From IMG/VR virus record IMGVR_UViG_3300034410_000409, positions 1 through 38,533 of that record: a DNA stretch of 38,533 bases, one strand, 5' to 3'. This document shows positions 620-29,328 of the stretch, piece by piece (within the stretch, counting starts at the first letter, position 1; each line of letters opens with the position of its first letter). The DNA comes from a virus (lineage: Duplodnaviria; Caudoviricetes). Under the pieces are notes generated by a model. It had not been told where the DNA came from. It worked only from the letters and a program-made list of their open reading frames with translations, and ran no database searches. The position numbers and the translations under genes were made by a program.

Positions 620-1260
620 ATTTCAATTTGCTCCATGTCTGCCTCAGCTCTAACAATTGTTTGTAATCGGAGTATATCCGCAGCAACATCATGTTTACTA
701 TCATGTGCTTTAAAGTTGTATTCCCATTTTGCTACATCGGACACAGGAATGAATCCGTTTTTACCGCCTGGCACGTTAAAGTCAAACTTAGCATCAATGA
801 ATGTACGAGTATCGCGTACAGCCCAATACTTAAGATACTGACCTAGTAATTCTTGTTTATTAGCATTTTGTGCAATACGATCTAGAATAACTGGATCAAA
901 AGAGTTTGATCTTGACCACCAATAATCTATTGGCTGTTCACTACGAAGATAATCAATAAGCTTTTCCATAAACTGTACTGCGCTAAGATCTTGCTGTGAT
1001 GGTTTCATATTTGTACGAAGTTCAGGTGGCTGATCTAACCACCATTGCAAATCACGTTCATTATATTTGCATCCATGATTTACCATTTGATCTTTAATAT
1101 CAAACTTAGCTTGTTGCATACCAAGCACAAGTTCTTTAAAGGAATAAGGATTATCACTAGTAAACCTTTCCCAATCAAATACGATATAAGAACAATCAAT
1201 TGCAGGTACTTCCCGCGAGTTTTGACCTATTGTTTCAAAGTCAATTATAAAATGTCTCAA
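616..1260 (-). CDS. dexA: DexA-like 3'-5' exonuclease (DEDDh)
   Basis: Motifs IIDFETIG, WSRSNSFDPVIL, VRDTRT and HDSKHDVAAD match T4 DexA. Confidence 0.85.
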   Translation of the reverse strand: MRHFIIDFETIGQNSREVPAIDCSYIVFDWERFTSDNPYSFKELVLGMQQAKFDIKDQMVNHGCKYNERDLQWWLDQPPELRTNMKPSQQDLSAVQFMEKLIDYLRSEQPIDYWWSRSNSFDPVILDRIAQNANKQELLGQYLKYWAVRDTRTFIDAKFDFNVPGGKNGFIPVSDVAKWEYNFKAHDSKHDVAADILRLQTIVRAEADMEQIEI

Positions 1261-2462
1261 AGAAATGCCTCCAGTGTAGAACCGCGTTCGATATAATCTG
1301 CTTTCTGTCTATGATTATACTGCATAACGAAGTCTGTGTCAACTGTTACTAGTTCATTATCTAAATATTTTTTAATTTCAGCCGCCATATCAGTCGCTGT
1401 TTGTACTGGAACGTTTTGACAAATGTGATTAGCATTCTTAGGTGATGCACCAACCAATTCAAAATCTTCAGGTAATCCCATAATAGTCATTGCTTCACGA
1501 TAGTTAATAAAGCGATCTTCATCAGGGTGAGCTAGCATTAAAGGATAATGACCAACAAAAGCACCAATACGATCTTTTGGAATTGTTACTCCACGTCGCA
1601 TAATACTTTTACCTGATTCTAATTTAGCATGTTTGTATTTGCATTTTTCTACTTCACGTTCATAACCATTCTTTTCCATCCATTCTGCTACTTGCAAATA
1701 GTTATAACCTTGTTGTTCAATATAACTATAAACACATGCGCCACGAGCTGAAGTTGGCTCAATAGCATTTGCATGTTCAGCATGAGTACGACCACCATGA
1801 ATTTCTTCTAAGATGAATCTGTAATATGGATTGTCTGTTGGCTTTTTCTTATGATTGATTACTTCAGTTTGGAAGTTAGACTTAACACCACGGATTACTT
1901 CCTCAATAGGAGTATGAGGCTTGTTGTAATAGCTTAAAAGAGGTGTGGTATTACCTTTCCAGAAGAAATAGAATGACCTCTCGCGTACTTGTGGTGACCC
2001 ATGCAATAGAGATTTAGTACGATATACGGACATTGTATATCCATTTGCTTTGCCAATTTCTTTCATTTGATTACGAATTGTTGCACCAATCTTACCAGCA
2101 AATCCAGGAGCATTCTCTCCCCAGAATACTTTTGGCTTATATTCACCTAAGATATAATTAGCTGTTTCGACCAACCATTTGTTATTTGCGTTATCATCTC
2201 CATATCCCATCGACATAGTTGATAAACCAGCACAAGGACATACCGAGGATACTACATCCGCACGTTCGTTAGTAGGTGGTGATTGATCCTTATCTAAAAC
2301 ATAATAAGGAATTTCATTATTATAATAATTTAAGATGTGACTATCGTTAGCAGCAAAAGCTTCATATGACATAAAGTGCAGTGGTTTAGTACCAAATGCT
2401 TTATGTGAACCAATAGTCTCTCCACCAATTAAGGGTACGATGGATGCGTGTGTATAACTCAT
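1257..2462 (-). CDS. Divergent C5-cytosine DNA methyltransferase-like protein
   Basis: Motif IV SSVCPCAG, motif VI GENAPG, motif VIII QVRERSF, motifs IX/X REAMTIMGLPEDF and ICQNVPV. Motif I is atypical (IVPLIGGE). Confidence 0.8.
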   Translation of the reverse strand: MSYTHASIVPLIGGETIGSHKAFGTKPLHFMSYEAFAANDSHILNYYNNEIPYYVLDKDQSPPTNERADVVSSVCPCAGLSTMSMGYGDDNANNKWLVETANYILGEYKPKVFWGENAPGFAGKIGATIRNQMKEIGKANGYTMSVYRTKSLLHGSPQVRERSFYFFWKGNTTPLLSYYNKPHTPIEEVIRGVKSNFQTEVINHKKKPTDNPYYRFILEEIHGGRTHAEHANAIEPTSARGACVYSYIEQQGYNYLQVAEWMEKNGYEREVEKCKYKHAKLESGKSIMRRGVTIPKDRIGAFVGHYPLMLAHPDEDRFINYREAMTIMGLPEDFELVGASPKNANHICQNVPVQTATDMAAEIKKYLDNELVTVDTDFVMQYNHRQKADYIERGSTLEAFL

Positions 2463-2932
2463 TTATTTTCTCCTGCGCATGCTTCTACTACACGATTCCT
2501 TAAATCGGTAGATGAAAACGAGTGCTTACGTTTGTTATAGTGAATAGAACATAAGCCAACACCTGTATGATCTGTGCCTTTATATTCCTCGCCAACAATT
2601 CTAACGTGTGGCTGAATAGTCAAAATCATATCGACGATTTCTTGTTCTGTACTAAATGGAATGACTTCATCAACAAAACGACAACCCGCCAATTGAACAT
2701 AACGTTCAAACGGAGTTTGGATTGGTTTATTTTTTGATTCAGGACGGTCAACCGTAGGATCGGTTAATAACCCGCAAATGAGATAATCACAAAGCTCTTT
2801 AGCTTCTTGTAGCATTACAATATGACCAGCATGCAATAAATCAAAAGTAGAACAGGTAAAACCAATTCTTACTTCTTCAACAGGCTTACCAACTTTTCTT
2901 GCTATCTCAGCTTTGTTTGTAAACATTATCAA
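2459..2932 (-). CDS. HxGH cytidylyltransferase-like nucleotidyltransferase (TagD/HldE-C family)
   Basis: FDLLHAGH, ER..QL..CRFVDEV, GEEY and FSSTDLR motifs. Confidence 0.85.
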   Translation of the reverse strand: MIMFTNKAEIARKVGKPVEEVRIGFTCSTFDLLHAGHIVMLQEAKELCDYLICGLLTDPTVDRPESKNKPIQTPFERYVQLAGCRFVDEVIPFSTEQEIVDMILTIQPHVRIVGEEYKGTDHTGVGLCSIHYNKRKHSFSSTDLRNRVVEACAGENK

Positions 2933-3941
2933 TACACTCCATAATAAAATCTTTGTTAGGGTGGTACTTATACACCCTAGTCACTTCAGCTGCTACCAAT
3001 GATATCAGCATATCTCTATTTATATCATTTGCCATAGCCAAATAATTTAAAGATCGACCGAATAGTTTCTTTGGGTACTTGTTAATTAATAGGCTTGCAC
3101 AAAACTTAGCAGCGTCGAGTTCAGTAGAACCAAACACATCACAAATTGGATCGATCAAATGAGCATCACAGTTATTGAATAAGATGTTTTTAATACCGAA
3201 ATCACCGTGAGAATATCCACGCTTTATTTTATATTTGTTTAAACTCGAAGCAACATCCATTAGTTTTTTCTGGCCTGAGTTTTTAGCGTGTTCTTCAATA
3301 CGATCAATATAACTACTAAATGTTATATAGGATTTATTATTAACAGGCTTTAATGATTTCATTTTATCTAACTGTGTTTGAACTGTAGCTAAAGCCATCC
3401 AAAAGTTTTCTTTAAAGAAGTTTTCATCGTGATCAATATAATCCATAGTAATTGTTTCACCAACAACACGATGAATAGCCGGTGTTTTAATACCAATCTT
3501 TTCAGCTCTTTCAAACCAATCACGTGTTTGGTGAGCATTATTATCTTGCTTATGTACTACTTTACCATCAGTAAAGATTTCACCACCAGATAATCCACCT
3601 TCAAGTTCACGAATATCTACTTCAAGGAAATCCTCAGGCATAATACCTTTATCATCAATATAGTAAGCTGCTAATGGTTTATCAAATGAGAGCATATTAA
3701 ACTTTACTTTGTGCTTATTCAACCATTTGAGCATGCTTTTTTCATACTTATCTCGAGCATCTTCACGAGTTTCACATGATATAGAACCACGTGCCGTAAA
3801 GATATCGATTTGCCAACCATCGGCGTGCAGCTTATTCAACTTCTTAATAAGAGGTTTGTTTGGTAAAGCCTTATCAAACTCGCGGTTTTGATGAAAGGCA
3901 AGTGTGTCGTCAAAATCTACTACAATACGTTTATGGTACAT
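2907..3941 (-). CDS. Fusion of an N-terminal HAD phosphatase and a C-terminal APH/choline-kinase-like phosphotransferase
   Basis: HAD motifs VVDFDDTL, FTAR, KP and YIDDK; kinase motifs HGDFGIKNILF and LIDP. Confidence 0.8.
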   Translation of the reverse strand: MYHKRIVVDFDDTLAFHQNREFDKALPNKPLIKKLNKLHADGWQIDIFTARGSISCETREDARDKYEKSMLKWLNKHKVKFNMLSFDKPLAAYYIDDKGIMPEDFLEVDIRELEGGLSGGEIFTDGKVVHKQDNNAHQTRDWFERAEKIGIKTPAIHRVVGETITMDYIDHDENFFKENFWMALATVQTQLDKMKSLKPVNNKSYITFSSYIDRIEEHAKNSGQKKLMDVASSLNKYKIKRGYSHGDFGIKNILFNNCDAHLIDPICDVFGSTELDAAKFCASLLINKYPKKLFGRSLNYLAMANDINRDMLISLVAAEVTRVYKYHPNKDFIMECIDNVYKQS

Positions 3942-5365
3942 TAAAAAAATCCCTCAAGTGTTGCACCCGTTTCTTTAGGTTCTTTGATTTCATTTTGTCT
4001 GCCATCAACAAGAGTGTATGCTTTTTCATTTAATACACTGCCTGGTGTTGATACAATAATCTCACCAGCTTCACGTCGTTGTTTTGCACTTGGAAAATAA
4101 CTTGAAATCCTATCTATAAAGTTTATATTATCACGCCTTTTTCCTTTTGTCAACACAAAATCTAAGAACTTAGGACCAAGCACTTCAATATCATTAAAGT
4201 TATAAACTAATTCTTGACAAGCCTTTGTACGTGCTTCCCACTCTTCTTTGTTATCATAAATTCTATTCAATTCTGCTGCTAACTCTTCTTCACATGTCGC
4301 TTCAGATATAAGTGGTCCATAGTATTCACCCCACTTTTTACCTTCAGGTGATACTGCGTTTTCAGCAAAGTGTTTACTGATAACAGGAAGAGATAAAAGG
4401 AATGATTCAATTACAGTATATTCCATACGATGGCCATACTCTTTTGGATCACCGAGACGATATCCACACCATGCTGCTGTAGAACTACCGAGTTGACTCA
4501 TTCCAAAATCATATTTGTAACTATCATATGCTGTAATAGTTGTACCAGTCTTTTCTTTTTCTTTGGCTGGTTCATAGTGTTCGCCAGCAGAATTTGTACC
4601 AACAAATTTAATCTTTGGTTGATATGATTTATGGTAAGGTGCTGCATCAGTGGCAAGAGTTTTAGAGTTTGGATCTCCAATAGATGAGATAGAACGTTCA
4701 CAACCCATCAAAGTTAAATCCCAGTCATTCTTTAGATATGGTTCAATACGACAGATCATACCTGGATCTTTAAGTGTTGACATACGACCCATGTACATAA
4801 AGTGCTTTTTACGATCTTCAAGGGATGCGCGATGTTTGTCGTATTCACCAGTACGAACCCATATTGGATTCTCCATTAGTCGACCTTCAAGGCCCGGATC
4901 AGTGTGCAGATAACACTCGTTAGAGTAACCTTCAAATGATTGTGTAACACCAATGTCTGCTAAAGAAAACAACTCAGCGGCTTGTGTTTGTCTGTTAATA
5001 GTGTTCTTTGTAATAGCATGGTCGTGTATTACAATGATTGGATCTCCAATGCCTTCGACAAATTCACGGAAACGATCGATGTACTTTCCATTTTTGCGGG
5101 TTGGGAATGAGTGTATGATTGCAATGTCGCAAGTGTTTACTTCATCAAGTACTGGCTGTGCGTCTTCAAGTTCATGATCAGATTCAACGCGGTGAATAGT
5201 ACTTTTCCATTCAGTATCTTTAGCACGACCAAATTTTTGTTTATTATCAAAATCAATTACAATGGTTTCATGTCCTTGTGATACCAACCACGATTCAAAT
5301 ATGTTTGCACCTTTAGTAACGCCGCATCCTTCGATGCCCTTTCCAAAGATAAAAGCAACTTTCAT
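3941..5365 (-). CDS. agt: DNA alpha-glucosyltransferase-like GT-B glycosyltransferase
   Basis: GIEGCGVTK, HDH, GR..TLK, GCERS and MEYTVIE parallel T4 AGT motifs GLEGCGVTK, HDH, GR..TWK, GLERS and LEYTHLE. Confidence 0.8.
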   Translation of the reverse strand: MKVAFIFGKGIEGCGVTKGANIFESWLVSQGHETIVIDFDNKQKFGRAKDTEWKSTIHRVESDHELEDAQPVLDEVNTCDIAIIHSFPTRKNGKYIDRFREFVEGIGDPIIVIHDHAITKNTINRQTQAAELFSLADIGVTQSFEGYSNECYLHTDPGLEGRLMENPIWVRTGEYDKHRASLEDRKKHFMYMGRMSTLKDPGMICRIEPYLKNDWDLTLMGCERSISSIGDPNSKTLATDAAPYHKSYQPKIKFVGTNSAGEHYEPAKEKEKTGTTITAYDSYKYDFGMSQLGSSTAAWCGYRLGDPKEYGHRMEYTVIESFLLSLPVISKHFAENAVSPEGKKWGEYYGPLISEATCEEELAAELNRIYDNKEEWEARTKACQELVYNFNDIEVLGPKFLDFVLTKGKRRDNINFIDRISSYFPSAKQRREAGEIIVSTPGSVLNEKAYTLVDGRQNEIKEPKETGATLEGFF

Positions 5366-5375
5366 TATATAACTC

Positions 5376-5738
5376 CTATATTAAATATTCTTTGCATTCA
5401 GCTAAAATTTGTTTTACAAGCTTCTTGTCATTCATTTGCCGATTAAGTGGCGATGGATGCGGGAGCCTGAAGTGTGATTTATTTATGACCGATAAACAGT
5501 TGCTCGCAAAAACTCCTAAAGCTAAAACCTTAGAATGATCTTCAACTAAACCTCTCAGTCTGTCAAAATCAACATCCTTCATTTTAACTTTACCCTTTTG
5601 AGTTACTACGTTAGCAAAGCTATAATTGTTGATACCAAGATCATCACACCACTCGTTAAGGCGAACTATAGTATGACCTTTATACGTAGCAGTCTTTGGA
5701 TTGTTACCAGGATTTTGACCAATTACTAATACACTCAT
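5376..5738 (-). CDS. Small uracil-DNA-glycosylase-fold protein
   Basis: UDG superfamily motifs [14 protein letters not shown] and LPHPSPLNR; only 120 aa. Confidence 0.7.
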
Positions 5739-6061
5739 TCTACAAACTTCTCAAATTTATGTGGTATGTTTTCCCATTCATAAGCATCCTCTAACGGAGC
5801 TTTTTCTTCATCGATGTTTGGCCATATCTGACTATATTTAGCATTTCTTTCCATCCAAATAATTTTATCTGGTTCAGGTAGATCTACATCAGATACAATC
5901 GCATCAACTGGACATTCCGGTACACATATTCCACAGTCAATACATTCATCAGGATTAATAACCAACATATCAGGTCCTTCATAGAAACAATCTACAGGAC
6001 AAACTGATACGCACGTGGTGTGCTTACATTTTACACAATTGTCGGTAACTAAATAAGTCAT
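5735..6061 (-). CDS. fdxA: 7Fe ferredoxin (FdxA type), 108 aa
   Basis: [29 protein letters not shown]...[13 protein letters not shown]. Start placed at MTYLV (6061), downstream of the deaminase stop. Confidence 0.92.
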
Positions 6062-6069
6062 AATACTTA

Positions 6070-6546
6070 TTATACACCAAGAATTGTAACTTGTACACCG
6101 CTTTCTGAAAACATTGGCAAAGAATGTTCTTCCCAAACTTTTTGCCATTCGGCTCGGTCAGTTTTATCAGTTGGAATTACTATTTCTTTAATGCCGGCTT
6201 GTATAACACACTTAGCACAATCAGGACAAATAGGCAATCCATGTACATACATCGTTGAACCTTTAAGGCTTACACCTGAATATAAAGCATTCATAAGAGC
6301 GTTCATTTCAGCATGAACTACAAGCTTATGTTTTAATTCACGAGTGTTGAGCCTTACTTCGGTATCATCAATACCCTTTGGAAATCCATTATAGCCTGTT
6401 GCTAGGATTCTTCGCTCATCATTAACGACTACACAACCAATCTTACTTGATGGATCTTTACTCCATGTTGCAATCATCTCGGCCATATCCATAAATCGCA
6501 TATGCCATTTGTCGTTATTCTTTAAAAAGATTACGTTATCGTTCAA
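6070..6546 (-). CDS. cd: dCMP deaminase
   Basis: [23 protein letters not shown] and PICPDCAK zinc motifs. Confidence 0.92.
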
Positions 6547-6886
6547 AGAGAGTACTCCATTGTTCTAGTTTCTTTTTCTTAACAGCAATTCTTTGATCTA
6601 TTTCTGCTTGAGAAACGAGATTAAATTCTTTGAGTAATTCAATCATTGCTGCCACGTCACCAATTTCATCTTTTAAGTTATTGGTAAACTTTTCTTGCAG
6701 GGCTTTAGTTCTTATTACTTTACTACAAGCTTGTGTTAACTCACCGCATTCTTCCATAGTAATAACTAACAGCTCATCAATCTTATTTGATTTTATAAGC
6801 TGATTAGCACGTCGGTCTGACTCGCGGAAATAAGAATCATACTCTTTTTCTTGTTGCTCAAGAACGTAAGCGCCCATTTTACTCAT
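6536..6886 (-). CDS. MazG-like nucleotide pyrophosphohydrolase
   Basis: MEECGELTQA...DEIGDV acidic motif. Confidence 0.8.
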   Translation of the reverse strand: MSKMGAYVLEQQEKEYDSYFRESDRRANQLIKSNKIDELLVITMEECGELTQACSKVIRTKALQEKFTNNLKDEIGDVAAMIELLKEFNLVSQAEIDQRIAVKKKKLEQWSTLFER

Positions 6887-6887
6887 G

Positions 6888-7598
6888 TTATTCTACCAAG
6901 TTGAAGTGTCGGTCATACACGTGTAAGTTCATTACTTGCCAGATAAGATCACCTTTAGTAATGCTGTTGATTGCAGGTGTACCGAATGTATTCATGTTAT
7001 TATCAGCAGCTTCAACGTTATATTCTTTAACGAACTTATCCATTAGATACTGAGCCCATGCGTAATCATTTTTATAGCCAAAGACTACGTCATTAGAGCG
7101 CATTTGAGATACCATATGTAGTTTACCATCACGAATATAAAAGGTCTGAGCGTTAGTACAGATGAAATCAGACTTACCGTTTTCATTGTATTCGGCCCAG
7201 ATAGATGGACGATTATAGACCATTTGAGCACGACGTGAATCAGGATTTTGAAGCAATTCATTCATAGCATTTCGGTATTGATTGAAGTACTTATCAGAAT
7301 AAACAATATGGCCATAGTTTGAATTGATTTCACCAACGTCATTAGCTGAATATTGCCAAGCCATTGGTGGTTCTTTTTCATCACCATGAATATCATTAAT
7401 GTTCGTTGATTGGCTTTCATACCAGTCGAGTTCAGCTTGGATATACTTAGGAGCTGGTTTACCAAAGATTGCTTCTTCATCAGCAACAAAAGATGCGCCG
7501 AGCATCTCAATAGTTTTAGCACCTGTTTTATCAGTAGTAAATCTTTCAGCAGCTAATTCGCTTTTGAAATATTCACGTACGTCACTTACTTTCATCAT
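6888..7598 (-). CDS. 42: dCMP hydroxymethylase (gp42-like, thymidylate synthase fold)
   Basis: DFICTN and MRSNDVVFGYKNDYAW versus T4 gp42 DFMCTN and MRSNDVVFGFRNDYAW; dCMP-specifying Asp present; NLHVYDRHF. Start could be 7619, 7604 or 7598. Confidence 0.88.
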   Translation of the reverse strand: MMKVSDVREYFKSELAAERFTTDKTGAKTIEMLGASFVADEEAIFGKPAPKYIQAELDWYESQSTNINDIHGDEKEPPMAWQYSANDVGEINSNYGHIVYSDKYFNQYRNAMNELLQNPDSRRAQMVYNRPSIWAEYNENGKSDFICTNAQTFYIRDGKLHMVSQMRSNDVVFGYKNDYAWAQYLMDKFVKEYNVEAADNNMNTFGTPAINSITKGDLIWQVMNLHVYDRHFNLVE

Positions 7599-7722
7599 CG
7601 CCATAATAATATCCTTCATTCGAGTTTGATTCTAGGTCTTCTACAATTCTATAAAGATCTTGTAGCTTTTCGATATCATTTTTATTTTCAGTATCGATCT
7701 GAATTTCTATTTTTATAATCAT
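7582..7722 (-). CDS. Small acidic hypothetical protein (46 aa)
   Basis: Hand translation MIIKIEIQIDTENKNDIEKLQDLY...; fills the operon gap exactly. Confidence 0.6.
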   Translation of the reverse strand: MIIKIEIQIDTENKNDIEKLQDLYRIVEDLESNSNEGYYYGDDESK

Positions 7723-18456: not shown

Positions 18457-18972
18457 TTACTTTTTAGCTGCTTTTTTGGCCGCTTTAGCCGCTTTCTTTT
18501 CCATCTGAATGACTGCTTTATCGTATTTTGCTTGAGAAATTAGGCCTTCTTTAAGCAATCTCGTACGGTTTACCATATGAGCAGCTTGAGTTTCTTCCTT
18601 AGATCCACCAAAATATGGTACACAATGACCTTCTTCAGCCATTATTTCGGTGACTTTTTTCATTTCTCCGTTGTATTCTACTTTAAAATCTCCAAGGATA
18701 CGACCGAATTTGCCCTTCATGTCTTCGCCTTTTCTGTCTTCGGTTGTAATCAACTTACCACCTTTTTTCATCAGCTGCTTTAATCTCAGCTTAGCCGCTT
18801 CTCCAAATAGATCTTCTACTCTATCTGATGTGCGTGATTCGGGAGTATCAATTCCCATAATTCGTACTCGTTCATCTGTTAGTGTAATACCGAAGCCAAG
18901 ATCAATGTCTACATCTACAGTATCACCGTCAACTACTTTAAGTACTTTGACGTCATATTCGTTCGTGTTCAT
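18457..18972 (-). CDS. Thermonuclease (SNase-like) family nuclease
   Basis: VVDGDT, RVRIMGIDTPE and KGKFGRILG. Confidence 0.85.
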   Translation of the reverse strand: MNTNEYDVKVLKVVDGDTVDVDIDLGFGITLTDERVRIMGIDTPESRTSDRVEDLFGEAAKLRLKQLMKKGGKLITTEDRKGEDMKGKFGRILGDFKVEYNGEMKKVTEIMAEEGHCVPYFGGSKEETQAAHMVNRTRLLKEGLISQAKYDKAVIQMEKKAAKAAKKAAKK

Positions 18973-19064: not shown

Positions 19065-19072
19065 TATAAATA
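19065..19072 (+). promoter_or_regulatory. T4-type late promoter for the secreted-protein operon
   Basis: TATAAATA. Confidence 0.7.
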
Positions 19073-19123
19073 ACCTGTAAGCGTTAAAAAATTATGAAGT
19101 TATATACACTGGAGAAATATGAG

Positions 19124-19696
19124 ATGAGAAGTTTCGCTATAGCCACTGCTGGCTTAATGTTATTGATCTTTGCAAATGTGGCGCAGGCACAAGATGCCGA
19201 ATGTCCGGAAGGTTACGTTTGTACAAAATCAGGCACTGATAGTACAATTACAAGTAACGGTAATATGAATACAACTATTACTCAACCACCGCCTAGTGCT
19301 ATTGCACCGCAATTTCACACAGGCAATAATAGCGACCTCTGTACCATTGGAGTGAGCGCTGCTATCCAAACACAAATTTTAGGTATCTCGGGCGGAGGAA
19401 CTTTTACAGAAGAAAACTGCCAGAGATTAAAGAATGCAAAAGTACTATATGACATGGGAATGAAAGTTGCCGCAGTATCAGTAATGTGCCAAGATAAAGG
19501 CGTGTTCGATGCTATGATGGATGCTGGCACACCATGTCCGTACGACGGTCAAATCGGCGAAGCTGCAAAGCTTGGTTGGGAGACCCACGTTGAGCAGACC
19601 GAAGAAGAATTAAAAAAGATGGGACCATTAGGAAATGTTGAAGAGAAAGCTCCTTTTATTGGCGCTGGCTTGTTGGCCTTCTTACTCTTACTCTGA
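19124..19696 (+). CDS. Exported Cys-rich protein with a C-terminal membrane anchor
   Basis: Signal peptide ending AQA-QD, six Cys, C-terminal FIGAGLLAFLLLL; GGAG RBS before MRSFA. Confidence 0.7.
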   Translation: MRSFAIATAGLMLLIFANVAQAQDAECPEGYVCTKSGTDSTITSNGNMNTTITQPPPSAIAPQFHTGNNSDLCTIGVSAAIQTQILGISGGGTFTEENCQRLKNAKVLYDMGMKVAAVSVMCQDKGVFDAMMDAGTPCPYDGQIGEAAKLGWETHVEQTEEELKKMGPLGNVEEKAPFIGAGLLAFLLLL

Positions 19697-20549
19697 GAGC
19701 ATAGCTCCGTATTATGGTTATACGGGGAATGCTATCACAGATCAAGCGTTAAGATGGTCGATGGGTAATGTGCTGCCTGAAGGAGTCCCAGGATTAGATA
19801 TACAAAATGTAATATATTCATACCGTATACAAAAGGAAACTGGTGAGTGGGTTACGGTATTTGTACAGAATGAGTTCGCAGAAGGTGCGGGTGAAGGTTA
19901 TATCTTTAGGGAAAGAGATGACTGGCTGCCTGGATCTTTATCAGGTACAAGAATCCAAAAAGCTGTACCAGTAGGAAATTTACCCCGAGCGTTATGGGGA
20001 GATGGAAGTATCGAGGTGGAAGGAAATGGAAGCGTTGATGACGCTAGCGTCGTATATACGTACAAGGTAACTCCTTGTTTTGATCCACAGTTTGATCCAA
20101 ACTGTCCAGGCTATAAATTGCCTGTTCCCGATATTCCAGAGATAGGACTAGATGATGTTTATAATGTTTTTGATGACGAAGCAGTGGACCTTGATCGCAA
20201 TACAGCCATGGCAGAAGATGATGAGAATGATGAAGAGAATGAAGCTGAAGATACAGAAGCTAAAGAAGACGAGAGAAGAAAGTATCGTTTAGAAAAAGCA
20301 ATGTCAGTTGCAGATACTGCAGCGTTGTTTGCTCAGAACGATATGATTAATCAAATGAATGCTGTCTCACAAACAGCAATTACTACCGCGTACTTGCCCT
20401 TGAATATACCGGGCGGCAGTTATAATGATACCTTAGTCTATAGAGATGTAGGTATGTCTGATGGTAAAAAAGGACTACGCAATGGATTGGCTCAGCAATT
20501 ACTTCATACTCAAATGGTTGATAAGCAATATAATTTAACTGAAAAATAA
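19635..20549 (+). CDS. Exported protein with a beta-rich domain, CFDPQFDPNCPGY motif and acidic linker
   Basis: Signal peptide MLKRKLLLLALACWPSYSYS. Confidence 0.7.
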   Translation: MLKRKLLLLALACWPSYSYSESIAPYYGYTGNAITDQALRWSMGNVLPEGVPGLDIQNVIYSYRIQKETGEWVTVFVQNEFAEGAGEGYIFRERDDWLPGSLSGTRIQKAVPVGNLPRALWGDGSIEVEGNGSVDDASVVYTYKVTPCFDPQFDPNCPGYKLPVPDIPEIGLDDVYNVFDDEAVDLDRNTAMAEDDENDEENEAEDTEAKEDERRKYRLEKAMSVADTAALFAQNDMINQMNAVSQTAITTAYLPLNIPGGSYNDTLVYRDVGMSDGKKGLRNGLAQQLLHTQMVDKQYNLTEK

Positions 20550-20557
20550 TAGGAGAC

Positions 20558-21082
20558 ATGCAAATGTTCAAAAATAACTTAATTAAACTTGGAGCACTGG
20601 TCTTAGTACTAGGCGCTCATAATGGTATTGCGCAGGCTCAGGACACCCCAATTAACGGAACAGTCCAGTCGCGTTGTATCATTCAAACAGATGTTGCGGG
20701 TACTTATGCTAACCCCAATGCCTACACACTAACAACCGCATCAGCAGATGGTGGTGACAACGCTGTTATTCGTATCGATGTATCATTAGCTGATGCATAC
20801 TACGCAGAAATTACAGCACCGGAATCTTTTTCCAGTTCGCCGAATCTTCCTGATGTTGTATATTGGACTGGTGACACAACTGTGAAAACAGTTTCTGACG
20901 CTACTACTATGGGCGCTTATGAAACAAGCAAAATTGAACTTGGTATGGTTGATAGATATGACCTAACCGCCACAGGTTCTACTTGGTTTGAAACTTCATC
21001 TGTTGCTACAATGGGTGGTTCAAAAGCTTTTCCAGGTGGTAACTATACCGCTTTAGTACAAGCTGATTGCATCGCTAAGTGA
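20558..21082 (+). CDS. Fimbrial/pilin-like exported subunit
   Basis: Signal peptide AQA-QD; N-terminal INGTVQSRC and C-terminal GNYTALVQADC, as in chaperone-usher/Csu-type pilins. Confidence 0.55.
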   Translation: MQMFKNNLIKLGALVLVLGAHNGIAQAQDTPINGTVQSRCIIQTDVAGTYANPNAYTLTTASADGGDNAVIRIDVSLADAYYAEITAPESFSSSPNLPDVVYWTGDTTVKTVSDATTMGAYETSKIELGMVDRYDLTATGSTWFETSSVATMGGSKAFPGGNYTALVQADCIAK

Positions 21083-21202
21083 AATGGAGGCAGTTCTATT
21101 GGACAATCTGCGCCAGCAACAAATCCTGACCCAACTTGTAGAAGGTTTGGTGGTTGCCCGTAAGGTTTCTGGTATGCAGCTGACTAAAAAGGATTTTAAA
21201 TA

Positions 21203-21595
21203 ATGTTACGTTATGTATTAATTGTGCTAGTGCTTATGTCGGTTTCTGTAGTCCGTGCTCATGAAATGGTTCCAACTTATCCAGAGATGAAACCCTCTTT
21301 CATGGACGGATTGCAGAAATTAACAATGACGATGTTCAATAAAAGGCAAGAAGTAGAGTATTATGAAATAGGCGTGTTCACCGAAGAGTGGGAACCGTTG
21401 CCGTTTGTATCAAATTATAAAGTATTTAAAATACCTTATTTGAGTACGGTAACATTTGACATATACATCAGAGACGAAGATAAGAATAAAGCTGAATTTA
21501 TATGTTCTCAATCTAAATTACGGAAAGAGCAATTAACGAGAACTGCCGTGTCTTCACGGATATGTTCCAGGGTGAAAAAGAAGGTTAGACGATGA
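21203..21595 (+). CDS. Exported protein resembling a pilus-chaperone Ig-like domain
   Basis: Signal peptide VRA-HE; PTY...LTMTMFN...YYEIGV pattern like the PapD N-domain; C-terminal Cys pair. Confidence 0.45.
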   Translation: MLRYVLIVLVLMSVSVVRAHEMVPTYPEMKPSFMDGLQKLTMTMFNKRQEVEYYEIGVFTEEWEPLPFVSNYKVFKIPYLSTVTFDIYIRDEDKNKAEFICSQSKLRKEQLTRTAVSSRICSRVKKKVRR

Positions 21596-22035
21596 AAAAC
21601 TATGCAAAGGCAATTATGATATCTTTTCTGATATATCCTACTATATCTTTGGCCGATAGTAGTGGGATTGGAGTAACACTCCCAGGAATGAGTTCTAGTT
21701 ATGGCCAAGATAGTATTCGTGCCGGTGATTTAGATTGTAAAAACTCGATTGGTGGCGCAACAAATTTAGAGTTCGGAGTAACTGGCGTGGTAGACAATTA
21801 TCAAAGCCCGTTTGGCGGTGGTAATTTCGACCCAACAAGAAGCAGCGAACGAGATATAGGGGTTTATGCTAGGATTACTATTCCTCTCGATAAACCAAAA
21901 GAAAGAATTAACTGTAACTCTCTATATCAATTGGAATTACGCAAAAAACGTCTTGAGGTTCTAAAACTACAACAAGAACTTGAGGCCTTAAAACGTTTGA
22001 ATGCATCCGGTGAATCTGAAGAGTTCGAAAATTAA
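21592..22035 (+). CDS. Exported protein with amphipathic beta-strands and a C-terminal coiled coil
   Basis: Signal peptide SLA-DS; NLEFGVTG and IGVYARITIPL; two Cys; LELRKKRLEVLKLQQELEAL. Confidence 0.65.
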   Translation: MKNYAKAIMISFLIYPTISLADSSGIGVTLPGMSSSYGQDSIRAGDLDCKNSIGGATNLEFGVTGVVDNYQSPFGGGNFDPTRSSERDIGVYARITIPLDKPKERINCNSLYQLELRKKRLEVLKLQQELEALKRLNASGESEEFEN

Positions 22036-22048
22036 TTGGAGAAAGGCA

Positions 22049-22657
22049 ATGGCCAAAAAAGATCTTGGAGAAGGAATTGAAAATTTTGAGAATGAGGTCG
22101 AAAACTTAAAGAACAAAAAGTTCGAGATATTTGGATTTACAATGACGCCCACGACTATAGGTGCGGCTTTTGCTATACTGAGTACTATACTAGGTGGCTT
22201 ATACGGAGCATTCAAAGTATATGACGATTATGGCGCAATGAAAGAAATTGTATCGAGTATTGATGTAGAAGCAATCAAAGCTGAAAACGATAAAGTTATA
22301 TTAAAGCTCGATGAATCAATAGCTCGTATTGATGAAGCTATTGAATATACTCGTGATATTAAATCAGGATTACGTGATGATATTATGGGTATTGAAAAAC
22401 AAGTAGATCGCGTCGAAGATAGCTTTAGAAAACAAGAAGGCGAAATCAGAGATATTATTCAAAATGCGGAAGAGCGTTTTGAAAACAAGCGTGATGCGTT
22501 ACAAAACGATTACGATCAAAAAGCAGGTGCTCTCAGAAATTCTAACTCAGCAAGAATGAGTGAACTTGAATCAAAGGTTGAACGAGATTTAGAAAATCTA
22601 GAAACCGATTTAATGAAGAAATTGCAAAGAGCATTAGATAATCCATTAGCGGATTAA
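22049..22657 (+). CDS. Single-TM long coiled-coil protein
   Basis: Start MAKKD after GGAG; TM segment IGAAFAILSTILGGLYGAF; heptad-rich C-terminus. Confidence 0.7.
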   Translation: MAKKDLGEGIENFENEVENLKNKKFEIFGFTMTPTTIGAAFAILSTILGGLYGAFKVYDDYGAMKEIVSSIDVEAIKAENDKVILKLDESIARIDEAIEYTRDIKSGLRDDIMGIEKQVDRVEDSFRKQEGEIRDIIQNAEERFENKRDALQNDYDQKAGALRNSNSARMSELESKVERDLENLETDLMKKLQRALDNPLAD

Positions 22658-22808: not shown

Positions 22809-23519
22809 ATGAGCGTAAGTCATAAAATGGCACGTCTTTCTGAAATTGCGTATCTTGACGGAAAGGAAGCAAAGGCACATAAAAAAGAACTAGGTTTTAC
22901 AGGTCACAAGTTTTTCGAAGACGATGGAGCACAAGCTCACGTTTTCTGGAATAAAGAAGATTATGTAGTATGTTACCGTGGTACAGAACCAGAAGAGATC
23001 TCAGACCTACTAGCTGATTTAAATGCAATACCTCGTGGAGCGATGACGAATGGTTTAGTTCATTCAGGTTTTAGAAATGAATGTGATAAATTATGGAGAG
23101 CAATTTCAAAGCATCAGTTAACACACGACAAGAAAAACTTATATGTTACTGGTCATTCATTAGGAGCCGCAATGGCTACTATAGCAACTTCTCGCTTTGA
23201 GGAATATACTAACGTAGTACAGCTTACAACTTTTGGATCACCAAGAGTCGGTACACGCAGTTTCGTTAAAGCCATCTCAACACCACACAAAAGGTTTGTT
23301 AATAACAATGATCTTGTTACTAGGGTACCACTGTGGTTGATGGGATATAAACACCATGGCGCATTACAATACATTAACTTCTATGGCAATGTTCGTAAAC
23401 TTACTTATTGGCAAGCAGTTAAAGATAAATGGCGTGGTTGGAGATCAGGTATCCTCGACGGAGCGGTAGATCACGGAATGAATAACTACGTTAAACATAC
23501 GGAGAAATTAGATGATTGA
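22809..23519 (+). CDS. Lipase class 3 (alpha/beta hydrolase)
   Basis: YRGTE, VHSGF, TGHSLG nucleophile elbow, TFGSPRVG, NNNDLVTRVP and DH. Confidence 0.9.
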   Translation: MSVSHKMARLSEIAYLDGKEAKAHKKELGFTGHKFFEDDGAQAHVFWNKEDYVVCYRGTEPEEISDLLADLNAIPRGAMTNGLVHSGFRNECDKLWRAISKHQLTHDKKNLYVTGHSLGAAMATIATSRFEEYTNVVQLTTFGSPRVGTRSFVKAISTPHKRFVNNNDLVTRVPLWLMGYKHHGALQYINFYGNVRKLTYWQAVKDKWRGWRSGILDGAVDHGMNNYVKHTEKLDD

Positions 23520-23853
23520 GACAATATCACAAATGTTCGGAGATAGACTCTGGATATATACAGCAATAGCAGGTGCATTAATTGGTGCTGCATTCTTAGC
23601 TTGGTTCAAAGGAACTAGAGCAGGATTGTGGTGCTATGCCTTATTCGACAGAACATTAGACTACTTAGTCGATCGTTGGGGTTGGACTTGGTTGCAAGAA
23701 CCAGTAGATGCTTGGAGAAAGAAATACCCCAAGATTACTAACAAGATTGATGAGCTTCAAAGCAGCATTAACGTTTTAGAACTACGTATTAAAAGTTTAG
23801 AGAACGGCAAGAAAGCAAAGATCATTAAACAAAAGAAGGAGACAAAGAAATGA
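23512..23853 (+). CDS. Membrane protein with a C-terminal coiled coil
   Basis: N-terminal TM segment; overlaps the lipase stop. Confidence 0.7.
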   Translation: MIETISQMFGDRLWIYTAIAGALIGAAFLAWFKGTRAGLWCYALFDRTLDYLVDRWGWTWLQEPVDAWRKKYPKITNKIDELQSSINVLELRIKSLENGKKAKIIKQKKETKK

Positions 23854-24008
23854 TAGATTTTATTAAGAATAGATTAAAAGAAAGAACATCTTTAGATGGA
23901 GCTTTACTAATTGGCGGTGGTGTTATTATGCTACTCGCTCCAGTAAGTTTGGTAGCATATGCCATGATTGGTTATGGTGCTTGGACTCTTTGGAAACCAG
24001 AATCATAG
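23850..24008 (+). CDS. Small two-TM holin-like protein (52 aa)
   Basis: MIDFIKNRLKERTSLDGALLIGGGVIMLLAPVSLVAYAMIGYGAWTLWKPES; ATGA coupling and AAGGAG RBS. Confidence 0.6.
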   Translation: MIDFIKNRLKERTSLDGALLIGGGVIMLLAPVSLVAYAMIGYGAWTLWKPES

Positions 24009-26486: not shown

Positions 26487-28541
26487 ATGATCGTTGTTGA
26501 TATTACGTTAGTTCCTGGAACAGATCAAAGCGAGTTTGTTGAATCTTTTGCTGATAATGATTCAGTAGAACTAGTAGATCTTCTTGAATTTCTTCCTAAT
26601 CTGTTGCTTCTAAAAATTGAAGAATCTTATATAGATACATTTGCCGCTGATTCTAGAGTTTTATCTGTTGATATAGATGAACCGGCAGAACCATCATCTA
26701 TAGGATATTCATTACCTGCCTCAGCAACTCAAGACGGCGATGCCACGGCGGAAGCTCCTCTTACTGTTTTAGATAACAATAATGCACCTGGCGCAGATTA
26801 CATGCCTCTTGCTTTATATGCTGATACTGACGTCATGCCTGAGCCCGAATCGCAAGTAGGTAATACTGATACTAACCCTGATGGAGATGACGCAGACATT
26901 CTTGAAAACGTTGAATATACTTCTATGTTCTTCGGTGAAAATGTTGATATAGTTAGTTTAGAGGCTGGTGGCAATTTTATCGGAACTCAAATTACTGACT
27001 GGGATCAATATCATACCGATCCACATCCTGATTTTGCTGACCCTGATAATACTTCAGTATCAAGATGGGTTCCTACAACTTGGCCTAATACTACTGACCA
27101 ATCATTTGATCCTAATGATCAAACAGCTTCTATAGGTGGCGGAACATTTGGGGAATCTAATTGGTTTAGTGCTCACTCCATTGGCTCATTAAGTGTAGCT
27201 GGCGGCGCTATTGCAGGATTTGCTAAAAAAGCAAACTTACATCATATCTTTGAATGGTCAAATACTCAGGCTGGTACTGGAAGTAATGCAATACAATGTA
27301 TAAACAATGTCGTTAGTTGGCATAACGCTAAAGCAAATAATCCAGCAACTGGCGTTCCTAACCCAACAGTAATGATAATGCCTATTCAGTTTACTATTAA
27401 TAAAGAATGGATTTGTCCTGTTGACCGCATTGAATCAGTAACTCACGATGGTGTAACATCAAATCGTCCTGAAGGCGGGTGGGGAAATGATTTAACACCT
27501 TTTACTGATAAGAATATTACACCCTTTAGATTAGATTTAGATGAAATAGGTAATGAAGGGATTAACGCACCCTGGGTTTGGGCAGTAACTTGGAGCAGGG
27601 AAGAGAATACATCATTTAAAAACGCAATCGAAGCTGCATGGGATGCTGGAATTGTTGTATTAGCGTGTGCAGGAAATACTGGATGCACATATGTTAAACG
27701 AGACGACCCGGCACATGATAATTCAACAATGCATATAGAGCACGGCGAAAGATATTTCAGAATGAATTACGCTAGCAGCGATAATGACCTCCAGTACTAT
27801 TCAGAATTTATTGCTGGCCAGTTTGAGCCTGAAGGAACAGGATTAACGGTTTACCCGTTCAGATCTTTTGGCCCGCACGGGTGTTCACGAGATAAATCTA
27901 TAGATGTTGGCGCAGTTCAAAACTCTATGAAAAACCCTATAATTGAGTATGCTAGTTCTCGCGGCCCTGGTGTAGATATAATGGGCAGAGGAAACGACAC
28001 GTATTCAGCATATCCAAGCGGGAGAAACTTTGCTGATGGTGAGTGGGGATACTTCACCGGAACTTCAGCCGCTACTGCTTCTATTGCTGGAGTGGCAGCA
28101 TGCGAGATGTCAAAATATTATTACAACACTGGGCGATGGCCAACTCCTAATCAGGTTAAAGAAATTATAGTGAATCAATCAAAAGATAACCCGATTAAAG
28201 AACTTGAAGGCGGCTCAATTTTTCCAGGAGTTACAGCAACGGGTATCGATCTTACTGGTAAAAGCTTTTCTGATATGCCGCCTGCTGAAGGCGGTACTGG
28301 TTGGTTTACAAATTCGCACCATTATTACAGGCTCGAAATGGATTTTTATAATGATGTTGAAAGAAATTTATTACAATCTCACAGAAACCGATACTATGGC
28401 AGACATAATTCAGTAGATCTTATGGGTACGACCGCGAAGATAGGGTTCTTTAATGCAAAGGGATTTGATAGAGCTCAGAGTCAAGGTAGAAGACCTAGGG
28501 AAGGTGGTATATATCCTCGTCCTAAAATACGAAGATCTTAA
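26487..28541 (+). CDS. S8 subtilisin-like peptidase (divergent), probably virion-associated
   Basis: ACAGN oxyanion motif, SSRGPGVDI, FTGTSAA nucleophile motif and AHSIG His motif. Confidence 0.75.
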   Translation: MIVVDITLVPGTDQSEFVESFADNDSVELVDLLEFLPNLLLLKIEESYIDTFAADSRVLSVDIDEPAEPSSIGYSLPASATQDGDATAEAPLTVLDNNNAPGADYMPLALYADTDVMPEPESQVGNTDTNPDGDDADILENVEYTSMFFGENVDIVSLEAGGNFIGTQITDWDQYHTDPHPDFADPDNTSVSRWVPTTWPNTTDQSFDPNDQTASIGGGTFGESNWFSAHSIGSLSVAGGAIAGFAKKANLHHIFEWSNTQAGTGSNAIQCINNVVSWHNAKANNPATGVPNPTVMIMPIQFTINKEWICPVDRIESVTHDGVTSNRPEGGWGNDLTPFTDKNITPFRLDLDEIGNEGINAPWVWAVTWSREENTSFKNAIEAAWDAGIVVLACAGNTGCTYVKRDDPAHDNSTMHIEHGERYFRMNYASSDNDLQYYSEFIAGQFEPEGTGLTVYPFRSFGPHGCSRDKSIDVGAVQNSMKNPIIEYASSRGPGVDIMGRGNDTYSAYPSGRNFADGEWGYFTGTSAATASIAGVAACEMSKYYYNTGRWPTPNQVKEIIVNQSKDNPIKELEGGSIFPGVTATGIDLTGKSFSDMPPAEGGTGWFTNSHHYYRLEMDFYNDVERNLLQSHRNRYYGRHNSVDLMGTTAKIGFFNAKGFDRAQSQGRRPREGGIYPRPKIRRS

Positions 28542-28687
28542 ACATACGTTACTGAATGAACTGCAATAAAAATACTAATAAAATATAAGAATAACGAGAC
28601 CATTACAAAAGCACCTACTAAGTAAGTAATAGTTTTAAGATTTGTAATGACCAAATATATTATTAAGCCTAGTAGTAAAATTTCCAT
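28538..28687 (-). CDS. Small hydrophobic protein (49 aa)
   Basis: MEILLLGLIIYLVITNLK...; promoter TTGACA-N17-TATAAT at 28714-28742. Confidence 0.55.
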   Translation of the reverse strand: MEILLLGLIIYLVITNLKTITYLVGAFVMVSLFLYFISIFIAVHSVTYV

Positions 28688-28782
28688 TCATATTTCCACA
28701 ATAGTTTAACTATATTATAACATGCTTGTCTACTAGTGTCAACTGGTATAAATAGATATAGCAACACAATAACTATGATCAT

Positions 28783-29328
28783 ATGAAATATTTTATACCA
28801 TTATATTCACTAATGCTACTTTTGGTTATGTCTTCCTGCACCATAGGAGACATGTTCAAACCAGAACCGCTAGCCCCTCAAAAAACAACACTAACACACA
28901 AAGCCTATTACTATTATGGCATGGACGAAGCGCGTCATCGTGATCTTATTAAAGAGATTATGGGGGTGGATCCAGTCACTACCGAATGGTGTGCGGCATT
29001 TGTTAATATGGTACTATTAGAAAATAAACTACCTACATCAGAATCAGTATCTGAGCATTATCTTTTGGCAAAAAGTTTTTTAGAGTATGGAGAAGAAGTG
29101 GTTGAGCCACAACAAGGCGATATCATGATATTTGAAAGAGGTAATGAAGGGTGGCAAGGCCATGTTGGATTTTACGTAAGTACCACCGTGTTAGATAATG
29201 GATCTAAATTATATAACATTCTTGGTGGTAATCAAAACGATTCAGTAAATGTAAAAGCTTATTCGGGTTCAAGACTGATAGGAATTAGAAGAGTTGTGGA
29301 AGAAGTCGCCGTCCTTGGCGAAGAGTAA
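28783..29328 (+). CDS. NlpC/P60-like (TIGR02594-type) peptidoglycan hydrolase with a lipoprotein-like signal
   Basis: WCAAFVN, GHVGFY and LGGNQ; N-terminal hydrophobic stretch plus VMSSC; TATAAATA at 28747-28754. Confidence 0.8.
   Translation: MKYFIPLYSLMLLLVMSSCTIGDMFKPEPLAPQKTTLTHKAYYYYGMDEARHRDLIKEIMGVDPVTTEWCAAFVNMVLLENKLPTSESVSEHYLLAKSFLEYGEEVVEPQQGDIMIFERGNEGWQGHVGFYVSTTVLDNGSKLYNILGGNQNDSVNVKAYSGSRLIGIRRVVEEVAVLGEE

What the first reader, a model, noticed from the sequence alone, without database searches (positions are those of the whole stretch)
19065..22657. Late operon of exported proteins resembling an usher-less pilus or fibre system
Seen: TATAAATA followed by six closely spaced or overlapping genes. 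Five have cleavable Sec-type signal peptides and even numbers of Cys in the mature part: a membrane-anchored Cys-rich protein, a possible adhesin-like protein, a pilin-like subunit (INGTV..RC / GNYTA.V), a PapD-like single domain, and a small protein with amphipathic beta-strands plus a coiled coil. The sixth is a TM-anchored long coiled coil. Known: T4-like virion parts assemble in the cytoplasm and lack signal peptides, and chaperone-usher pili need an usher of about 800 aa, absent here. Inference: a lytic phage builds a periplasmic or surface structure on the infected cell, with the small beta protein perhaps oligomerising as an outer-membrane pore. Possible roles are tethering to new hosts or particles, superinfection exclusion, or disulfide-bonded fibres picked up at lysis.
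Basis: partly seen in the sequence, partly recalled or inferred. Interest (0 to 1): 0.88.

Follow-up and report, generated by a model that had tools for sequence, protein, structure and literature searches.

The report
Phage-encoded usher-less pilus module
A marine T4-like phage carries a conserved block of six genes for proteins predicted to enter the infected cell's envelope; one is predicted to chain head-to-tail like a bacterial pilus subunit, so the phage would likely make its host grow a thin fibre by a route that lacks the usual large usher pore.

Summary
In detail: a T4 late promoter motif, six genes under purifying selection, and the order A-B-C-D-E unbroken across 90 viral contigs. 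The block joins two modules. C-D-E (20558, 21203, 21592) also stands without A and B in cultured T5-like Vibrio phages and in bacteria; 41 of 55 such bacterial genomes had no usher match. D folds like the N-domain of PapD-type chaperones. C folds as an Ig-like sandwich with a free N-terminal strand. A three-copy model inserts that strand into the next copy, as in pilus donor-strand complementation (score 0.52, best control 0.00; mark reached by 20 of 30 solved pairs, 1 of 23 single chains; runs agree in at least 77% of contacts; pLDDT 89). E has an amphipathic hairpin and is the likely usher substitute (untested). A, a B-like protein and F form a separate envelope module in pelagiphages, often beside endolysins. 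Best reading: a minimal usher-less pilus made late on the infected cell; its purpose is inferred. It is not a chaperone-usher family member. My searches found no paper on it. This scan noted the same cassette before on other DNA.

The parts
19065..19072 (+). T4-type late promoter motif TATAAATA
   Evidence: upstream of A in 43 of 64 related loci
19124..19696 (+). Gene A (ORF opens at 19094): signal peptide, amphipathic beta-hairpin between two Cys, helical domain, hydrophobic C-terminal tail; module A-B-F
   Evidence: phrog_20531 of unknown function; relatives in cultured pelagiphages and roseophages
19635..20549 (+). Gene B: signal peptide, beta-rich N-domain ending in a Cys pair, acidic linker, helical C-terminus; module A-B-F
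   Evidence: no Pfam, PHROG, PDB or Atlas match
20558..21082 (+). Gene C: pilin-like subunit, Ig-like sandwich with invariant Cys13 and Cys144 of the mature chain
   Evidence: AlphaFold2 pLDDT 93.6; Foldseek list rich in pilins but weak; three-copy model
20639..20677 (+). Predicted donor strand of C (mature residues 1-13)
   Evidence: low confidence in the monomer; lies between residues 20-25 and strand 135-143 of the next copy
21203..21595 (+). Gene D: single-domain chaperone-like protein, PapD N-domain fold, Cys82 and Cys102 invariant
21592..22035 (+). Gene E: small exported protein with an amphipathic beta-hairpin (21760-21888) and a C-terminal coiled coil; candidate oligomeric outer-membrane pore
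   Evidence: beside a C-like gene in all 80 bacterial loci and in pVp-1; not folded here
22049..22657 (+). Gene F (ORF opens at 22001): one N-terminal membrane segment, long coiled coil, C-terminal NPL motif; module A-B-F

Best explanation
The block joins two envelope modules behind one late promoter motif, and its C-D-E module likely builds a thin pilus on the infected cell without an usher: C is predicted to polymerise head-to-tail by donor-strand complementation, D likely chaperones it, and a ring of E would serve as the outer-membrane exit. Steps: (1) late transcription (motif shown, expression inferred); (2) Sec export and disulfide formation (inferred from sequence); (3) D, which has the PapD N-domain fold (model and fold search), lends a strand to the open groove of C (inferred, not modelled here); (4) the N-terminal strand of the next C takes its place (predicted); (5) E hairpins from many copies form a small barrel, with the coiled coils in the periplasm (inferred). 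A, B and F form a second module that is not needed for the fibre, since C-D-E stands without it elsewhere. It most likely links the inner membrane (F) to the outer membrane (A) and acts at or near lysis. The likeliest gain for the phage is to stick the doomed cell to neighbouring hosts or particles before the burst (inferred).
For: C: pLDDT 93.6, with residues 1-10 at 64. Three copies score 0.52, best of 3 controls 0.00; the mark was reached by 20 of 30 solved pairs and 1 of 23 single chains (counts hold roughly: own alignment, three copies); runs agree in at least 77% of contacts; pLDDT 89. Residues 1-13 of one copy pair antiparallel with strand 135-143 of the next (139-4, 137-6, 136-7) and touch 20-25. 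The strand alternates T3, I5, G7, V9 across 84 phage and bacterial sequences. D: 36 Foldseek matches at E <= 0.001, led by FaeE, DraB, PapD, SfaE, FimC; Z 10.4 to FimC (rmsd 2.8, 103 aligned) and 10.3 to SafB. C-D-E without A or B: pVp-1 gp77-79 and a Mesorhizobium plasmid; E with a C-like gene in all 80 bacterial loci, no A or B in any. Many of these loci carry a second subunit; in 50 it lacks the N-terminal extension, as a tip subunit would. No PF00577 usher match in 41 of 55 of these genomes or in 5 of 5 phage records, complete pVp-1 included. E's hairpin alternates L38, F40, V42, V46 and I68, V70, A72, I74, I76 with polar positions, including invariant E39 and near-invariant R73. Precedent: pelagiphages encode a curli fibre-and-pore system (PMC9599517, passages; PMC9004378, section 9 part 1 and passages).
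Against: C has no strong match to a known pilin: no Foldseek hit at E <= 0.001 (best FimF, 2.8e-3), best Z 7.6 to staphylococcal adhesin domains, no SCPU or fimbrial Pfam hit in 84 members. The three-copy pass may reflect likeness to solved pili, and its three runs span 0.45-0.56 around a mark of 0.42. D matches MSP and other Ig domains about as well (top row Z 10.7 is a chitosanase domain), and the phage D profile hit only 32 ORFs in the 80 bacterial loci at E <= 0.05. E was not folded; an usher passes folded subunits through a wide barrel (recalled), which E could match only as a large ring. The bacterial genomes are drafts without completeness values and mostly one genus, and 14 of 55 do hold an usher. 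In pVp-1 and Thalassa the trio sits just before holin and endolysin, which fits a lysis role as well. No fibre has been seen, and the host is not known.
Confidence: 0.55

Rival explanations
1. All six proteins serve lysis: C polymers stay in the periplasm, and A-B-F (with E) act as a spanin substitute that ties the two membranes together and breaks the outer one.
For: F has i-spanin topology. In pelagiphage-type contigs an M15 endolysin follows A, B-like and F-like genes in 20 of 45 loci. My lipobox scan found no lipoprotein in the whole HTVC202P genome or in 20-60.9 kb of HTVC023P, while it did find the o-spanins of L027 and L029. C-D-E precedes holin and endolysin in T5-like Vibrio phages. 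91 phages lacked identifiable spanins in PMC6139136 (passages).
Against: Ordinary spanins lie within 8 kb of the full block in 16 (inner) and 9 (outer) of 90 contigs. C-D-E is a stand-alone operon in bacteria, at variable chromosomal sites and with extra subunits, where lysis makes little sense. In HTVC202P and Baldr the A module sits before the terminase, not the endolysin. The lipobox scan is a strict home-made rule.
Confidence: 0.2
2. The block guards the infected cell: a surface or periplasmic coat of C, or the A-B-F complex, masks receptors or blocks entry of competing phages and keeps progeny from binding to debris.
For: Late envelope location. Superinfection defence is one role proposed for phage curli (PMC9599517, passage). 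T5 uses a late-region lipoprotein for receptor masking (recalled).
Against: Exclusion genes are usually early and single (recalled); this does not explain the bacterial operon with tip-like subunits. This rival can coexist with fibre assembly.
Confidence: 0.12
3. C fibres are matured in the periplasm and join the virion at lysis as disulfide-bonded side fibres or a coat.
For: In pVp-1 and Thalassa the trio directly follows two large tail-region proteins.
Against: Signal peptides separate C from cytoplasmic virion assembly; the same trio serves bacteria; E would have no role. No virion proteomics was found.
Confidence: 0.08

Closest known systems
Chaperone-usher pili (type 1 FimC/FimF/FimD, P pili PapD, F1 antigen Caf1M/Caf1, SafB/SafA, CFA/I CfaB, archaic CsuC/CsuA/B, CupE)
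   Same: Exported Ig-like subunit with an N-terminal donor strand (predicted); partner with the PapD N-domain fold; compact operon with major and tip-like subunits in bacteria.
   Different: No usher; the chaperone-like protein has one domain of 111 residues; the subunit's Cys pair flanks the whole domain (13 and 144); no sequence-level family match; a small hairpin protein E is the constant third partner.
Phage-encoded curli (type VIII secretion, CsgG/CsgF with CsgA/B-like genes) of pelagiphages and Melnitz (PMC9599517, PMC9004378)
   Same: A lytic marine phage encodes envelope fibre machinery for its host; an oligomeric pore of small protomers is what E is inferred to form.
   Different: Curli are amyloids passed unfolded (recalled); here the subunit is a folded Ig domain with a chaperone-like partner. 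No CsgG match in A-F or in 5 related phage records.
Archaeal cannulae (CanA) and other donor-strand fibres without an usher
   Same: CanA gave the highest TM-score to C among the Foldseek rows shown (0.57); Z 5.9.
   Different: Weak match; no PapD-like partner and no outer membrane to cross (recalled).
Two-component spanins (lambda Rz/Rz1)
   Same: F has one N-terminal membrane segment and a long coiled coil; its module often lies beside an endolysin.
   Different: No lipoprotein among A-F; no spanin PHROG match for F; true spanins co-occur in some contigs.

Membership tests
Chaperone-usher pili | Outer-membrane usher (PF00577) encoded with the operon | tested here: not met
   No ORF of 550 aa or more with a signal-peptide-like start within 8 kb in 90 viral contigs; 0 of 5 phage records (four incomplete); 41 of 55 bacterial genomes with the trio have no match
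Chaperone-usher pili | Two-domain periplasmic chaperone | tested here: not met
   D is 111 residues mature and aligns to the N-domain only (FimC 2-119)
Chaperone-usher pili | Chaperone N-domain with PapD fold | tested here: met
   MSP and other Ig domains score about as well
Chaperone-usher pili | Incomplete Ig subunit completed by the N-terminal extension of the next subunit | tested here: met
   By prediction only: score 0.52, best control 0.00; 20 of 30 solved pairs and 1 of 23 single chains reach the mark; agreement at least 77%, pLDDT 89
Chaperone-usher pili | Chaperone binds the subunit through its G1 strand | not tested
   The single complex job went to C-C; earlier scan notes claim a C-D dock, which I did not check
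Archaic (Csu/SCPU, PF05229) pili | SCPU domain in the subunit | tested here: inconclusive
   No Pfam hit in 84 members; Atlas feature score 0.96 to a bacterial cluster in which 15% carry SCPU; CsuA/B at Foldseek E 0.026
Curli (type VIII secretion) | CsgG pore (PF03783) | tested here: not met
   No hit in A-F; 0 of 5 related phage records (four incomplete)
Two-component spanins | Outer-membrane lipoprotein partner | tested here: not met
   No lipobox protein among A-F
Two-component spanins | Inner-membrane anchored periplasmic coiled coil | tested here: met
   F topology by hydropathy and coiled-coil Pfam hits below cut-off; no spanin family match
Any pilus | Visible surface fibre | not testable with these tools
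   Needs microscopy

The most novel reading that the evidence does not exclude
C-D-E is an undescribed secretion pathway: a donor-strand pilus assembled by a one-domain chaperone and passed through a ring of a 126-residue hairpin protein instead of an usher. It is shared by rhizobia, sphingomonads, Vibrio plasmids and common ocean phages, which use it to make infected cells adhesive before the burst. A-B-F is a second undescribed machine, a lipoprotein-free spanin substitute of SAR11 and Roseobacter phages.
Probability: 0.35. Interest if true: 0.92.

Novelty: new variant of a known kind. Interest (0 to 1): 0.78.

Why it matters
The usher is held to be indispensable for donor-strand pili of Gram-negative bacteria (recalled). 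A three-gene version would show a simpler, perhaps older, way to export and polymerise folded subunits. It would also mean that lytic phages rebuild the surface of infected marine cells, which bears on cell aggregation and phage spread. The family is large: 1411 clusters for C among 2058 candidates and 5329 for E among 7999. It can be tested directly, because cultured Vibrio phages and Mesorhizobium strains carry the trio and cultured pelagiphages carry the other module.

Tried and rejected
Pfam and PHROG scans named none of A-F. Profile searches of PDB sequences gave nothing significant for C, D, E, A or B. C itself had no tblastn match in 50,697 phage records; the cultured relatives came through E and A. 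A and E as paralogues: rejected, the profiles match only in the signal peptide. B as a homologue of the pelagiphage B-like proteins: not shown; only HTVC115P gp53 matched, at E 1e-4 in the C-terminal part. F against the short pelagiphage F-like proteins reached only 62% probability, though HTVC115P gp49 matched at 5e-30. The B N-domain had no Atlas hit. The two proteins before D and E on the V. nigripulchritudo plasmid look pilin-like at their C-termini but missed the C profile (E 0.12 and 0.31). E was found in 1 of 301 sampled genomes of the class of G054, the centre genome itself, plus one weak hit in a 964-aa frame, so the trio is patchy in bacteria. No chaperone-usher pilin appeared among the rows shown by the two VIA searches for C. 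Long ORFs near the bacterial loci were listed but not identified. Short contigs from two RNA-library runs of one sample cover parts of A to E; this does not show transcription. Paper searches showed no description of this block; the library lacks most subscription journals and I read no supplements, where it could be listed.
Full report
Setting. The window is part of a T4-like phage genome (head closure, tail tube, topoisomerase II, UvsY) found in seawater metagenomes. I name the six genes A (19124-19696), B (19635-20549), C (20558-21082), D (21203-21595), E (21592-22035) and F (22049-22657). The host is not known.

Observation. TATAAATA lies at 19065 and is enriched in the window (13 against 5.5 expected). 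It precedes A in 43 of 64 distinct related loci. Signal peptides were judged by hydropathy and alignment, not SignalP. All six genes show dN far below dS against three relatives. Two scans of viral contigs gave 100 loci from 90 distinct contigs, some of them near-identical strains. The order A-B-C-D-E is unbroken in every row, and missing members fall at contig ends. F follows E directly or after a few genes. None of the six has a named family.

Two modules. Earlier notes of this scan suggested that the block splits, and I tested that. E matches 77 records of cultured Vibrio phages (GenBank and RefSeq copies both counted). In pVp-1 the genes gp77-79 match the C, D and E profiles at 1.5e-16, 1.4e-9 and 1.4e-15 and lie between two large tail-region genes and holin-endolysin; Thalassa has the same layout. 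A Mesorhizobium plasmid has C, D, E and a second C-like gene; a Vibrio plasmid has D and E behind two proteins that only resemble pilins. A genome scan gave 83 loci, 80 shown, mostly Mesorhizobium, with Aureimonas, Chelativorans, Salaquimonas, Hellea and sphingomonads. All 80 have a C-like gene beside E and none has A or B; the phage D profile hit 32 ORFs, weakly. Conversely, A occurs in cultured pelagiphages and roseophages with a long exported protein and a membrane-anchored coiled coil ending in NPL. Of 80 contigs fetched with the HTVC023P protein, 45 had 2.6 kb or more downstream; all 45 held A, a B-like and an F-like gene, none held C, D or E, and 20 held an M15 endolysin. Homology of B to those B-like proteins was not shown.

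C is a predicted donor-strand subunit. The model is confident (pLDDT 93.6) except for residues 1-10. Fold searches are weak: Foldseek lists FimF, CfaB, PapG, Caf1, CsuA/B and cannulae with no E under 0.001, and VIA's best Z is 7.6 to staphylococcal Ig domains. The three-copy model is clearer: score 0.52, best of 3 controls 0.00; 20 of 30 solved pairs and 1 of 23 single chains reach the mark, counts that hold only roughly for this job; runs agree in at least 77% of contacts; pLDDT 89. Residues 1-13 of one copy lie antiparallel to strand 135-143 of the next and against residues 20-25, with I5 and G7 at the centre of the contacts. That is the geometry of donor-strand complementation (recalled). 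The pass may come from likeness to solved pili. Gene content agrees independently: 73 bacterial loci have a subunit with the N-terminal motif, and 50 have a second subunit without it, as a tip would.

D is half a chaperone. Its model (pLDDT 84.3) matches FaeE, DraB, PapD, SfaE, FimC and SafB, with Z 10.4 to FimC residues 2-119. MSP domains and a chitosanase domain score about as well, so the fold is not proof of function; the constant place between C and E is the added reason. I did not model C with D.

No usher; E is the candidate exit. No long exported ORF lies within 8 kb in the 90 viral contigs. PF00577 found nothing in five phage records, complete pVp-1 among them, or in 41 of the 55 bacterial genomes searched out of 80; 14 had a match. 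E has two strands of about 11 residues with alternating hydrophobic and polar positions, a variable loop between them, an invariant Cys pair and a coiled coil. This is what a protomer of an oligomeric outer-membrane barrel looks like, but E was not folded and the pore is inference.

A-B-F. F has i-spanin topology, and A has its own amphipathic hairpin. HTVC202P and the late region of HTVC023P showed no lipoprotein by my rule, so the module could replace spanins there. Against this, ordinary spanins flank the full block in 16 and 9 of 90 contigs. I take it as a link between the membranes that probably acts near lysis, with low confidence.

Mechanism and odds. C polymerises by donor-strand exchange: about 0.75. 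The polymer reaches the surface through E: about 0.55. Adhesion to new hosts or particles as the purpose: about 0.35. The rivals are a lysis role for the whole block (0.2), exclusion (0.12) and virion fibres (0.08).

Known systems and novelty. The trio likely works like a chaperone-usher pilus but fails membership on the usher and on the two-domain chaperone. The nearest phage precedent is the curli system of pelagiphages (PMC9599517, passages; PMC9004378, passages and section 9 part 1), which is unrelated in sequence. Nine paper searches showed no description of this block. The scan has noted it on other DNA many times; those notes were leads, not support. I class it as a new variant of a known kind, with a categorically new export route as the open possibility. 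Interest 0.78.

Noticed in passing
window 22809-24008: A class 3 lipase and two small membrane proteins follow F and travel with the block in 30, 29 and 20 of 90 contigs; they may be lysis helpers.
   Followed up: partly
window 19635-19696: The hydrophobic tail of A and the signal peptide of B are written on the same DNA in two frames; the overlap is 41-86 nt in all 30 pairs measured, 62 nt in 15.
   Followed up: partly
L196 26391-26651 (-), Roseobacter phage CRP-810: An unannotated lipoprotein overlaps the start of the A homologue and looks by eye like the Cys-bearing helical half of A.
   Followed up: no
L102 6338-7060 and L103 1472-3898: EAL-domain genes lie near the trio on both plasmids, as is common for c-di-GMP-controlled surface structures.
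   Followed up: no
window 1257-7619: A DNA modification cluster: C5 methylase, HAD-type phosphatase, alpha-glucosyltransferase-like and thymidylate synthase-like genes.
   Followed up: no
window 26487-29328: Late genes for a subtilase-domain protein matching a tail-fibre PHROG and a CHAP-domain lipoprotein; a similar lipoprotein lies near the block in 14 of 90 contigs.
   Followed up: no
window 18457-18972: A staphylococcal-nuclease-like gene runs divergently from the promoter and moves to either side of the block in relatives.
   Followed up: no
window 21083-21202: A 120-nt gap between C and D, also about 90-115 nt in some relatives, could hold a signal that sets C above D and E in amount.
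   Followed up: no
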